Shown here: positions 19,249 through 19,589 of the stretch, piece after piece | How positions within the stretch are numbered: the stretch's first letter is position 1 | Layout of the letters: each line of letters opens with the position of its first letter | NCBI GenBank assembly: GCA_020536535.1 | Contig: JAHLWZ010000184.1 | Span: 12,209-31,797, forward strand | Direction of reading: 5' to 3' | Length of the DNA: 19,589 nucleotides | DNA from: Pelomyxa schiedti | Taxonomy: Eukaryota > Protista > Evosea | Translations under genes and position numbers: made by a program | The notes under the pieces: model-generated | Database searches by the model: none | What the model saw: only the letters and a program-made list of their open reading frames with translations | What the model was told of the DNA's origin: nothing

Positions 19249-19589
19249 GTATCAAATAAAAACCCACCGGGAATGAACCTTTGTTATCTCGCCAGGCGCG
19301 ATCGGGTACACCCTGCCCCGGAACAAGTTGGCCCCCGAGCCCGCGCACGCCCCGGCCAAGTTGGCGCCGGGGCCGCGGCCCAGGTCGGCGCCGCGCTGCT
19401 CGTGCGCCCACGCCACCCGCCCGGCGTCCGAGGCCACCACCGCGCCCTCGTGCACCCCGCCGCGCGCCGACTCCACGCGGTACCCGCACGCCGTGGCGCC
19501 GCCGGGGAGCCCCACCGTCATGACACCCCCCACGCACCGCGGCAGAGACACAACCGCTGGGCTCGGAGGGGGAGATGGAGAGGGAGAGG
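19249..19589 (-). other. Abrupt very GC-rich segment (roughly three-quarters G+C by eye) carrying a partial high-GC3 ORF. It runs off the window end; it is either the 3' end of a neighbouring gene or foreign / misassembled DNA.
   Basis: Minus-strand frame: ...MTVGLPGGATACGYRVESARGGVHEGAVVASDAGRVAWAHEQRGADLGRGPGANLAGACAGSGANLFRGRVYPIAPGEITKVHSRWVFI*. Almost every codon ends in G or C. The two other frames give Arg/Pro- or Gly/Arg-rich nonsense, as expected if this frame is the coding one. Composition changes within ~20 nt at ~19260 from AT-rich to GC-rich. Confidence 0.3.

What the first reader, a model, noticed from the sequence alone, without database searches (positions are those of the whole stretch)
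19249..19589. Sharp compositional break to ~75-80% GC with a high-GC3 ORF at the window edge
Everything upstream is moderately AT-rich with AT-rich introns. From ~19260 the sequence becomes extremely GC-rich within a few nucleotides. One frame, on the minus strand and running off the window, shows bacterial or GC-rich-algal style codon usage and a non-repetitive, enzyme-like amino-acid sequence (GLPGGATACGYRVES...VHEGAVVASDAGRVAWAHEQ).

This is unlike the window's other GC islands (6890-7600, 9380-9620, 13920-14060), which are low-complexity. Possibilities are a horizontally acquired gene, an assembly chimera or contaminant join, or the extremely GC-biased 3' exon of a neighbouring gene.
Basis: seen in the sequence. 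Interest (0 to 1): 0.55.

Follow-up and report, generated by a model that had tools for sequence, protein, structure and literature searches.

The report
GC-rich first exon of amoeba gene
The very GC-rich block at the window edge is the first coding exon, already annotated, and 5' flank of a gene of the amoeba Pelomyxa schiedti; other genes in the window also turn GC-rich at their 5' ends, so it is most likely native DNA, not a bacterial transfer or contaminant.

Summary
The compositional break is real. GC rises from 0.33-0.35 to 0.80 within about 30 nt near 19260-19295. The minus-strand frame has GC1/2/3 = 0.74/0.64/0.96 (permutation p<1e-5).

The window comes from Pelomyxa schiedti, whose genome is 46.5% GC. 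A full HMMER scan of 1.84 billion proteins found one true match, GenBank KAH3765894.1 (1131 aa). Its first 81 residues are exactly this ORF (ATG 19521 to 19279). The model splices it in phase through a 208-nt AT-rich GT-AG intron to the long ORF at 19070.

So this is the 5' exon of a gene inside the window. It is not a 3' exon, and the ORF need not run off the edge.

No prokaryotic, viral, plasmid or metagenomic relative exists at protein or DNA level. The known symbionts are 33-55% GC.

The same signature recurs in the window:
- The ankyrin ORF has GC3 0.90 for about 110 codons, then 0.53.
- The AAA-ATPase first exon is 70% GC, followed by a 34%-GC intron.

Best reading: a native GC step at the 5' end of the gene, bounded by the first intron, as described in grasses. 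An amplification or assembly chimera and a mis-called exon cannot be excluded without reads.

The parts
19522..19589 (-). 5' flank or 5' UTR of the gene. It is CT-rich on the minus strand (CCTCTCCCTCTCCATCTCCCCCTCC...), GC 0.71, and continues past the window edge.
   Evidence: GC3 in the ORF frame is only 0.59 here, against 0.96 downstream of the ATG. Assignment as UTR or promoter is inferred, not shown.
19279..19521 (-). Exon 1 (81 codons, MTVGLPGG...PGEITK) of KAH3765894.1. GC 0.78, GC3 0.96, CpG observed/expected 1.17.
   Evidence: Translates exactly to residues 1-81 of P0001. Periodicity permutation p<1e-5. Composition.
19071..19278 (-). Intron 1: 208 nt, GTTCAT...AAAAG, phase 0, GC 0.33.
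   Evidence: Boundaries derived by fitting P0001 to the window. Splicing rests on the public gene model only; no RNA evidence was seen here.
17436..19070 (-). Exon 2 (545 codons). Ordinary composition: GC 0.44, GC3 0.41. Ends with a 40-aa SNW/SKIP motif.
   Evidence: Fisher test of GC3 in exon 1 versus exon 2: p = 1e-23.
15835..17391 (-). Exons 3 and 4 with the stop codon (17391-15952 and 15912-15835, separated by a 39-nt intron). A 44-nt intron lies at 17392-17435. Exon 3 holds the SF1/BBP-type KH domain.
6910..7240 (+). Comparison case: the 5' part of the ankyrin-repeat ORF 6890-8890. GC 0.67 and GC3 0.90 for about 110 codons, then GC3 0.53 in the rest of the same uninterrupted ORF.
9381..9575 (+). 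Comparison case: first coding exon of the AAA-ATPase gene. GC 0.70 starting at its ATG, followed by an intron of about 160 nt with GC 0.34.
   Evidence: A weak MIT-domain match (E = 0.013, below Pfam's cut-off) spans my hand-made exon 1-2 join.

Best explanation
The block is native Pelomyxa schiedti DNA. It is the first coding exon (19521-19279, minus strand) and the adjoining 5' flank of the gene annotated as KAH3765894.1.

The exon encodes an 81-residue N-terminal extension rich in Gly, Ala, Arg and Val, with no recognisable domain. In the public gene model it is spliced in phase through a 208-nt AT-rich intron to the rest of the protein.

The extreme composition is a GC step at the 5' end of the gene. 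In the stretch upstream of the first intron, third codon positions are saturated with G/C. First and second positions are held back by the protein code. The intron and all later exons keep the genome's usual 33-45% GC.

Shown: the composition, the codon periodicity, the identity with the public gene model, the absence of foreign relatives, and the recurrence in the window.

Inferred: that the exon is really spliced and translated, and what causes the step. Candidate causes are GC-biased gene conversion or another GC-raising force near the promoter, a CpG-island-like unmethylated state, or selection on the 5' part of the mRNA.
For: - Identity: phmmer against 1.84 billion proteins gave one true hit, P0001, at 99% identity (E = 2e-44). 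Query residues 23-105 align to its residues 1-83.
- Source: P0001 is KAH3765894.1 of Pelomyxa schiedti. That genome is 46.53% GC, matching the window's 0.457.
- Gene model: exon 1 translates exactly to residues 1-81. The intron is GT-AG and phase 0 on both sides.
- Coding signature: GC1/2/3 = 0.74/0.64/0.96, p<1e-5; G at 45 of 81 first positions. The signal starts at the ATG and fades 11 nt before the donor.
- GC3 profile: 1.00 in codons 1-60, falling to 0.40 from codon 91.
- Recurrence, ankyrin ORF: GC3 0.90 for about 110 codons, then 0.53, in one uninterrupted ORF.
- Recurrence, AAA gene: exon 1 GC 0.70, then an intron at 0.34.
- Recurrence, ORF starting at 13921: also begins in a GC island.
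- Published P. schiedti proteins: 3 of 12 sampled (Tom40, Tom60, MPPa) have N-termini with 41-59% Gly/Ala/Arg/Pro against about 24% further along. P0001 has 54% against 23%.
- No foreign match.
- Symbiont genomes are 33, 50 and 55% GC.
- Two of the four Leu codons are TTG. From my own knowledge, TTG is rare in high-GC bacteria.
- Known analogue: step changes in GC at introns, with the region upstream of the first intron the richest (PMC4684703).
Against: - The genome comes from multiple-displacement-amplified single cells assembled with SPAdes --sc, from polyxenic cultures. Chimeric joins are a real risk, and no reads could be inspected.
- Splicing of exon 1 to exon 2 rests on an automatic model (Augustus/PASA/EVM).
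- The 208-nt intron is longer than the 39-90 nt introns seen elsewhere in the window.
- Exon 2 has its own ATG at 19049-19051.
- The exon 1 peptide has no homologue outside this gene, so conservation cannot confirm translation.
- At 78% GC and GC3 0.96 it is more extreme than the other islands (67-70% GC).
- A regional force such as gene conversion does not easily explain a 33%-GC intron immediately next to the exon.
- Generality rests on one window and 12 proteins.
Confidence: 0.68

Rival explanations
1. The region is a native GC-rich promoter or 5' UTR island (CpG-island-like), but it is not translated. The gene predictor recruited a chance open frame as exon 1, and the real start is the ATG at 19049-19051 (Met88 of the model).
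For: - At 78% GC nearly every frame is open.
- Exon 2 has its own ATG five codons in.
- Intron 1 is unusually long, at 208 nt.
- The peptide has no homologue or domain.
- CpG observed/expected is 1.17 against 0.63 in the rest of the window.
Against: - Untranslated DNA should not place 50 of 53 A/T bases at codon positions 1 and 2, nor show G at 56% of first positions.
- The periodicity begins at the ATG and is in phase with exon 2.
- The ankyrin ORF shows the same signature in sequence continuous with an ankyrin-repeat reading frame.
Confidence: 0.13
2. The block is an amplification or assembly chimera. A fragment of a high-GC organism (culture bacterium or reagent contaminant), or of another part of the Pelomyxa genome, was joined to this scaffold near 19285-19295.
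For: - The DNA was amplified by multiple displacement from single cells of a polyxenic, polyeukaryotic culture, assembled with SPAdes --sc and then decontaminated by binning and BLAST.
- The step is very sharp and lies at the window edge.
- The codon usage looks like that of a high-GC bacterium.
Against: - No relative in one genome per 185,579 prokaryotic species, in JGI metagenomes, in viral contigs, in plasmids or phages, or in 1.84 billion protein representatives.
- The known symbionts are 33-55% GC.
- The block begins at an ATG and ends next to an in-phase donor.
- Two or three other gene 5' ends in the same 19.6 kb show the same kind of step. Independent chimeras would not produce that.
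Confidence: 0.1
3. The block is the 3'-terminal exon of a different, upstream gene on the minus strand. That gene would end at TGA 19252-19254, with AATAAA about 10 nt downstream. The stretch 19071-19251 would then be intergenic, not intronic.
For: - The frame is open from the window edge to TGA 19252.
- An AATAAA follows the stop on the minus strand.
- A CT-rich tract followed by CAG at about 19557-19589 could be read as a splice acceptor.
Against: - GC3 drops to 0.59 upstream of ATG 19521.
- Introns in this window are AT-rich and lack pyrimidine tracts, unlike the 71%-GC CT-rich tract.
- The last 9 codons before the TGA are AT-rich and non-periodic.
- The other GC islands of the window lie at 5' ends of genes, not 3' ends.
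- The public model uses the block as exon 1.
Confidence: 0.05
4. The block is foreign DNA, bacterial or from another GC-rich source, that was captured and turned into a new 5' exon.
For: The composition is far from the host's: 78% against 46% GC.
Against: - No donor-like sequence was found anywhere.
- Recurrence of the pattern at other host genes, at least one with eukaryotic domains (ankyrin repeats).
Confidence: 0.04

Closest known systems
GC steps at the 5' ends of plant genes, bounded by introns (rice and other grasses; Ressayre et al. 2015, PMC4684703)
   Same: - The coding region upstream of the first intron is much richer in G+C, mainly at third codon positions.
- The change is a step at the intron, not a smooth gradient.
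- The amino-acid composition shifts along with it (for this locus).
   Different: - The organism is an anaerobic amoebozoan with 46.5% GC overall. No such pattern is reported for it: no paper in the library holds both 'Pelomyxa' and 'GC-rich'.
- GC3 is practically saturated (0.96-1.00).
- Only a few genes were seen here, so genome-wide generality is untested.
- In the ankyrin ORF, GC3 falls without any visible intron.
GC-rich first exons and CpG islands at vertebrate promoters
   Same: - The block is over 200 bp, with GC 0.77 and CpG observed/expected 1.05-1.17 against 0.63 in the rest of the window.
- It overlaps the presumed 5' end and first exon.
- In human genes GC content is highest in first exons (abstract of PMC7181179).
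   Different: - Nothing is known here about DNA methylation in Pelomyxa.
- The island is very short.
- In two other genes of the window the GC rise starts at the coding exon, not in the upstream flank.
Bacterial gene acquired by horizontal transfer
   Same: High GC and G/C-ending codons that look foreign against the host background.
   Different: - No prokaryotic homologue.
- Only 81 codons long.
- Joined by a spliceosomal intron to ordinary host coding sequence.
Chimeric contigs from multiple-displacement amplification of single cells
   Same: The assembly method makes such chimeras possible, and the junction is abrupt.
   Different: The junction coincides with gene structure (ATG, in-phase donor), and the pattern recurs at other genes in the window.

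Membership tests
5' GC step bounded by the first intron (GC-rich first coding exon) | GC3 of the coding region upstream of the first intron is far above that of the later exons. | tested here: met
   GC3 is 0.96 in exon 1 and 0.41 in exon 2 (Fisher p = 1e-23). The sliding profile falls from 1.00 to 0.40.
5' GC step bounded by the first intron (GC-rich first coding exon) | The change is a step at the intron, and the intron is itself GC-poor. | tested here: met
   Exon 1 GC 0.78, intron 1 GC 0.33, exon 2 GC 0.44. The fall begins 11 nt before the donor.
5' GC step bounded by the first intron (GC-rich first coding exon) | The pattern recurs across genes of the same genome. | tested here: inconclusive
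   Seen in the ankyrin ORF (GC3 0.90, then 0.53) and in AAA exon 1 (GC 0.70), and weakly at the ORF starting at 13921. Also 3 of 12 published P. schiedti proteins have GARP-rich N-termini. The whole genome is not available here.
5' GC step bounded by the first intron (GC-rich first coding exon) | The exon is really transcribed, spliced and translated. | not testable with these tools
   Only the public automatic model (KAH3765894.1) and codon periodicity support it. No RNA or peptide data are at hand.
CpG island (length over 200 bp, GC over 0.5, CpG observed/expected over 0.6) | The three sequence criteria. | tested here: met
   19279-19589: 311 nt, GC 0.765, CpG observed/expected 1.05. The rest of the window is at 0.63.
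CpG island (length over 200 bp, GC over 0.5, CpG observed/expected over 0.6) | An unmethylated island in an otherwise methylated genome. | not testable with these tools
   No methylation data.
Horizontally transferred prokaryotic gene | Significant homologues in prokaryotes, closer than any eukaryotic one. | tested here: not met
   There is no hit other than the gene itself among 1.84 billion representatives. Nothing was found in GTDB genomes, JGI metagenomes or viral contigs. The alternative plus frame also has none.
Contaminant or chimeric join | The foreign part matches a contaminant or symbiont genome. | tested here: not met
   An exact 26-mer is absent from the genome and metagenome collections. 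Plasmid and phage searches gave only chance-level short hits. The symbionts are 33-55% GC.
Contaminant or chimeric join | No consistent read support across the junction. | not testable with these tools
   Reads and the rest of the scaffold could not be reached. All encoding-contig look-ups failed.
VIT domain upstream of a VWA domain (a lead from memory) | A match to the Pfam VIT or VWA profile spanning the exon 1-exon 2 junction. | tested here: not met
   No VIT or VWA hit at E<=10 in Pfam or NCBIfam, and nothing in PDB sequences. The single-sequence AlphaFold model is unusable, pLDDT 33.
Pentapeptide repeat protein (suggested by three GA[ND]L motifs) | A five-residue period and a Pfam pentapeptide match. 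| tested here: not met
   The motifs are spaced 8 and 11 residues apart (24 and 33 nt). No Pfam hit.

The most novel reading that the evidence does not exclude
Pelomyxa schiedti, an anaerobic amoebozoan not known for heterogeneous base composition, may carry a genome-wide, grass-like GC3 step bounded by the first intron. Third positions would be almost saturated with G/C in the stretch upstream of the first intron in a subset of genes. That would point to promoter-proximal GC-biased gene conversion, and hence meiotic-type recombination, or to a CpG-island-like promoter state in Archamoebae.
Probability: 0.3. Interest if true: 0.5.

Novelty: new member of a known kind. Interest (0 to 1): 0.25.

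Why it matters
For this locus the result is mainly a clean-up. A block that looks like a bacterial transfer or a contaminant is an annotated host exon, so it should not be counted as lateral gene transfer.

The wider point is modest but testable. If abrupt, near-saturated GC3 at the 5' ends of genes is general in P. schiedti, three things follow:
- Composition-based screens for decontamination and lateral transfer would be biased. This assembly was itself binned by tetranucleotide composition.
- Many predicted proteins would carry Gly/Ala/Arg/Pro-rich N-termini, which confuse predictors of organelle targeting. That was the main aim of the published genome paper.
- It would give a handle on recombination or methylation in a lineage where neither is characterised.

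Tried and rejected
- Word-indexed protein searches found nothing: the minus frame, the neighbouring ORF and the plus frame sharing the same period. That tool did not return even the gene's own record, so its silence counts for little. The exhaustive HMMER scan is the meaningful test.
- The four other hits (E = 1e-9 to 4e-4) are giant repeat proteins matched through Gly/Ser/Thr-rich repeats. I rejected them as homologues.
- Searches with the exon peptide in prokaryotic genomes, metagenomes and viral contigs gave pattern hits only; none was confirmed by tblastn.
- An exact 26-mer was absent from the genome and metagenome collections.
- blastn against plasmids and phages gave only chance-level short matches driven by composition.
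- Rfam found nothing. The bacterial promoter and terminator scan was uninformative.
- No copy of the block exists elsewhere in the window at DNA or protein level, so it is not a repeat element.
- Extending the sequence beyond 19589 failed. P0001 and four ORF variants are not on record in the look-up of encoding contigs.
- The pentapeptide-repeat idea was rejected on motif spacing.
- The VIT-domain idea, recalled from memory, has no support from Pfam, NCBIfam or PDB.
- AlphaFold without an alignment gave pLDDT 33, so no fold search was run.
- The plus-strand reading (Pro/Ala/Arg/Thr-rich, GC1 below GC2, no ATG) was rejected on codon-position pattern and lack of any supporting gene model.

Full report
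**The observation**

The last 300 nt or so of the window differ sharply from the rest.
- GC is 0.35 in 19000-19248 and 0.80 in 19290-19540. The switch falls within about 30 nt around 19260-19295.
- No other 250-nt stretch of the window exceeds 0.69.
- At this composition an open frame is not evidence of a gene: five of six frames are almost open.

What is informative is a strong three-base period.
- In the minus-strand frame ending at TGA 19252-19254, the core has GC1 0.74, GC2 0.64 and GC3 0.96.
- Only 3 of 53 A/T bases sit at third positions. None of 100,000 shuffles reached this amplitude.
- One plus-strand frame shares the same period, but it has GC1 below GC2, no ATG, and a Pro/Ala/Arg/Thr-rich product.
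- The minus frame has G at 45 of 81 first positions and 68% purines there, the usual coding pattern.

**What organism and what gene**

- The window is eukaryotic. It carries ankyrin repeats, an AAA ATPase with a Vps4-type C-terminus, and an SNW motif. From the ORF translations I also read an EF-1-gamma-like gene. Introns are 39-90 nt.
- An exhaustive HMMER scan of 1.84 billion representative proteins with the 111-aa frame gave one real hit, P0001 (1131 aa, 99% identity, E = 2e-44). Query residues 23-105 align to its residues 1-83.
- The other four hits are weak matches to giant repeat proteins.
- P0001 is GenBank KAH3765894.1, 'Branchpoint-bridging protein [Pelomyxa schiedti]', seen on one contig of 31,797 nt.
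- The published P. schiedti assembly is 46.53% GC, matching the window's 0.457.

**Anatomy**

Fitting P0001 to the window gives the following model.

| Part | Coordinates (minus strand) | Notes |
|---|---|---|
| Exon 1 | 19521-19279 | 81 codons, MTVGLPGG...PGEITK |
| Intron 1 | 19278-19071 | 208 nt, GTTCAT...AAAAG, phase 0 |
| Exon 2 | 19070-17436 | |
| Intron 2 | 17435-17392 | 44 nt |
| Exon 3 | 17391-15952 | |
| Intron 3 | 15951-15913 | 39 nt |
| Exon 4 | 15912-15835 | includes the stop codon |

- GC is 0.78 in exon 1, 0.33 in intron 1 and 0.44 in exon 2.
- GC3 is 0.96 in exon 1 against 0.41 in exon 2 (Fisher p = 1e-23).
- The sliding GC3 profile is 1.00 over codons 1-60 and 0.40 from codon 91.
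- The periodic signal begins at the ATG. The 22 in-frame codons between the ATG and the window edge have GC3 of only 0.59.
- The signal fades 11 nt before the donor.
- Upstream of the ATG lies a 71%-GC tract that is CT-rich on the minus strand and runs to the window edge.

The ORF therefore need not run off the window. The block is the first exon of the gene lying inside the window, not a 3' exon of a neighbour.

**Is it foreign?**

Nothing suggests a donor.
- Prokaryotic genomes: no relative of the peptide in one genome per 185,579 species.
- Metagenomes and viral contigs: none.
- Word-indexed protein database: none in either candidate frame.
- Exact 26-mer: absent from the genome and metagenome collections.
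- Plasmids and phages: only chance-level matches driven by composition.
- Symbionts: the three characterised endosymbionts of P. schiedti have 33.1, 49.9 and 54.8% GC.
- Function: no Pfam, NCBIfam or PDB match. The peptide is 53% Gly/Ala/Arg/Pro, so 'enzyme-like' is not supported.
- Copy number: the block has no copy elsewhere in the window.

**The block is not unique in the window**

A scan of GC by codon phase shows one other place where one phase reaches about 0.9, at 6900-7260.
- That stretch lies in the frame of the 666-codon ankyrin-repeat ORF 6890-8890. Codons 8-117 have GC1/2/3 = 0.60/0.52/0.90, and the remaining 512 codons 0.52/0.43/0.53.
- It is non-repetitive.
- The first coding exon of the AAA-ATPase gene (9381-9575) is 70% GC starting at its ATG. 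An intron of about 160 nt at 34% GC follows, then ordinary exons.
- A weak MIT-domain match spans my hand-made join of its exons 1 and 2. It is below Pfam's cut-off (E = 0.013).
- The ORF starting at ATG 13921 also begins in a milder GC island.

Outside the window, 3 of the first 12 sufficiently long P. schiedti proteins listed in the genome paper's supplement have N-terminal 80-residue stretches with 41-59% Gly/Ala/Arg/Pro. These are Tom40, Tom60 and MPP-alpha. Further along they have about 24%. P0001 has 54% against 23%.

GC-rich 5' coding ends therefore look like a recurring property of this genome.

**Mechanism**

The most economical reading is a native GC step at the 5' end of the gene.
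- Upstream of the first intron, some GC-raising force has driven synonymous sites to saturation.
- Non-synonymous positions are held back by the protein code.
- The intron stays AT-rich.

This is the pattern described for plant genes. [quoted passage not shown] In human genes, too, GC content is highest in first exons (abstract of PMC7181179).

The block also meets the sequence criteria of a CpG island: 311 nt, GC 0.765, CpG observed/expected 1.05 against 0.63 for the rest of the window.

Which force acts in Pelomyxa is inference only. The 33%-GC intron directly next to the exon is not easily explained by a purely regional process.

**What remains open**

- The assembly comes from multiple-displacement-amplified single cells of a polyxenic culture. 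It was assembled with SPAdes --sc and annotated automatically. A chimeric join and a mis-called first exon are both legitimate rivals.
- Against a chimera: the junction coincides with gene structure, the pattern recurs, and no source was found.
- Against a non-coding island: the codon periodicity, in phase with exon 2.
- I could not obtain reads, transcripts or the scaffold beyond 19589.
- A structure prediction without an alignment was useless, pLDDT 33.
- Exon 1 plus the start of exon 2 resembled, from memory, the core of a VIT domain ahead of a VWA-like 'WDCSSS' motif. No profile search supports this, so it stays an unconfirmed lead.

**Verdict**

The block is an already annotated first exon of a P. 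schiedti gene and is most likely native (confidence 0.68).

Horizontal transfer is not supported. A chimera cannot be excluded without reads.

Interest is low to moderate. The locus itself is ordinary once identified. A possible genome-wide, near-saturated 5' GC3 step in an archamoeba is not mentioned in the literature I could search, and it would be worth a simple genome-wide check.

Noticed in passing
window 15835-19521 (minus strand): The gene model KAH3765894.1 is a mosaic:
- About 490 aa of unknown sequence with a 'WDCSSS' motif that looks VWA-like by eye but has no profile support.
- Then a 40-aa SNW/SKIP motif (PF02731, E = 2e-16) inside the same uninterrupted ORF 17355-19064.
- Then an SF1/BBP-type KH domain (PF22675, E = 4e-23).
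- Then about 400 aa of unknown sequence.
The name 'Branchpoint-bridging protein' reflects only the KH piece. Fragments of two splicing-factor genes embedded in a third gene are odd. This could be domain shuffling or an assembly or annotation artefact.
   Followed up: partly
window 6843-7240 (plus strand): The GC3-rich start of the ankyrin ORF has no in-frame ATG before 7111. A 4-nt first exon 'ATGG' at 6843-6846, a 63-nt intron, and an acceptor ...cacag|GTCACACC at 6909/6910 would restore a start in frame. This is a guess from the sequence.
   Followed up: no
window about 13520-13620 (minus strand): The EF-1-gamma-like gene seems to begin with a 9-nt first exon (ATGTCGATG|gtgcgt), followed by an intron of about 90 nt before ...NLICTADDLRGQKALIAAKYAG. 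This gene has high GC3 (about 0.8) along its body as well.
   Followed up: no
window 10690-11800 (plus strand) and 15913-17435 (minus strand): Introns here are very short (39-90 nt). Donors are weak (GTTTxx, GTTGCG) and there is no pyrimidine tract. The first introns of two genes are longer (about 160 and 208 nt) and very AT-rich (0.33-0.34 GC).
   Followed up: partly
window 19055-19066 and 19284-19295 (plus strand): Two near-identical 12-mers, TTATCTCCACAG and TTATCTCGCCAG, look like plus-strand splice acceptors. The second sits at the composition break (19284-19295), overlapping the last 7 nt of exon 1 (19279-19290); the first (19055-19066) lies just inside the start of exon 2. No plus-strand gene model fits them, and it is probably chance.
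   Followed up: partly
window 1-600: Both strands carry long open frames through a simple repeat, giving (Lys-Thr/Ala-Lys)n on one strand and (Phe-Val/Ala-Phe)n on the other. This is low-complexity sequence with strong AT skew at the window start.
   Followed up: no
whole window: CpG observed/expected is 0.63 over the bulk of the window but 0.9-1.2 in the GC islands at the 5' ends of genes. This would fit CpG depletion by methylation outside the islands, which is untested.
   Followed up: partly
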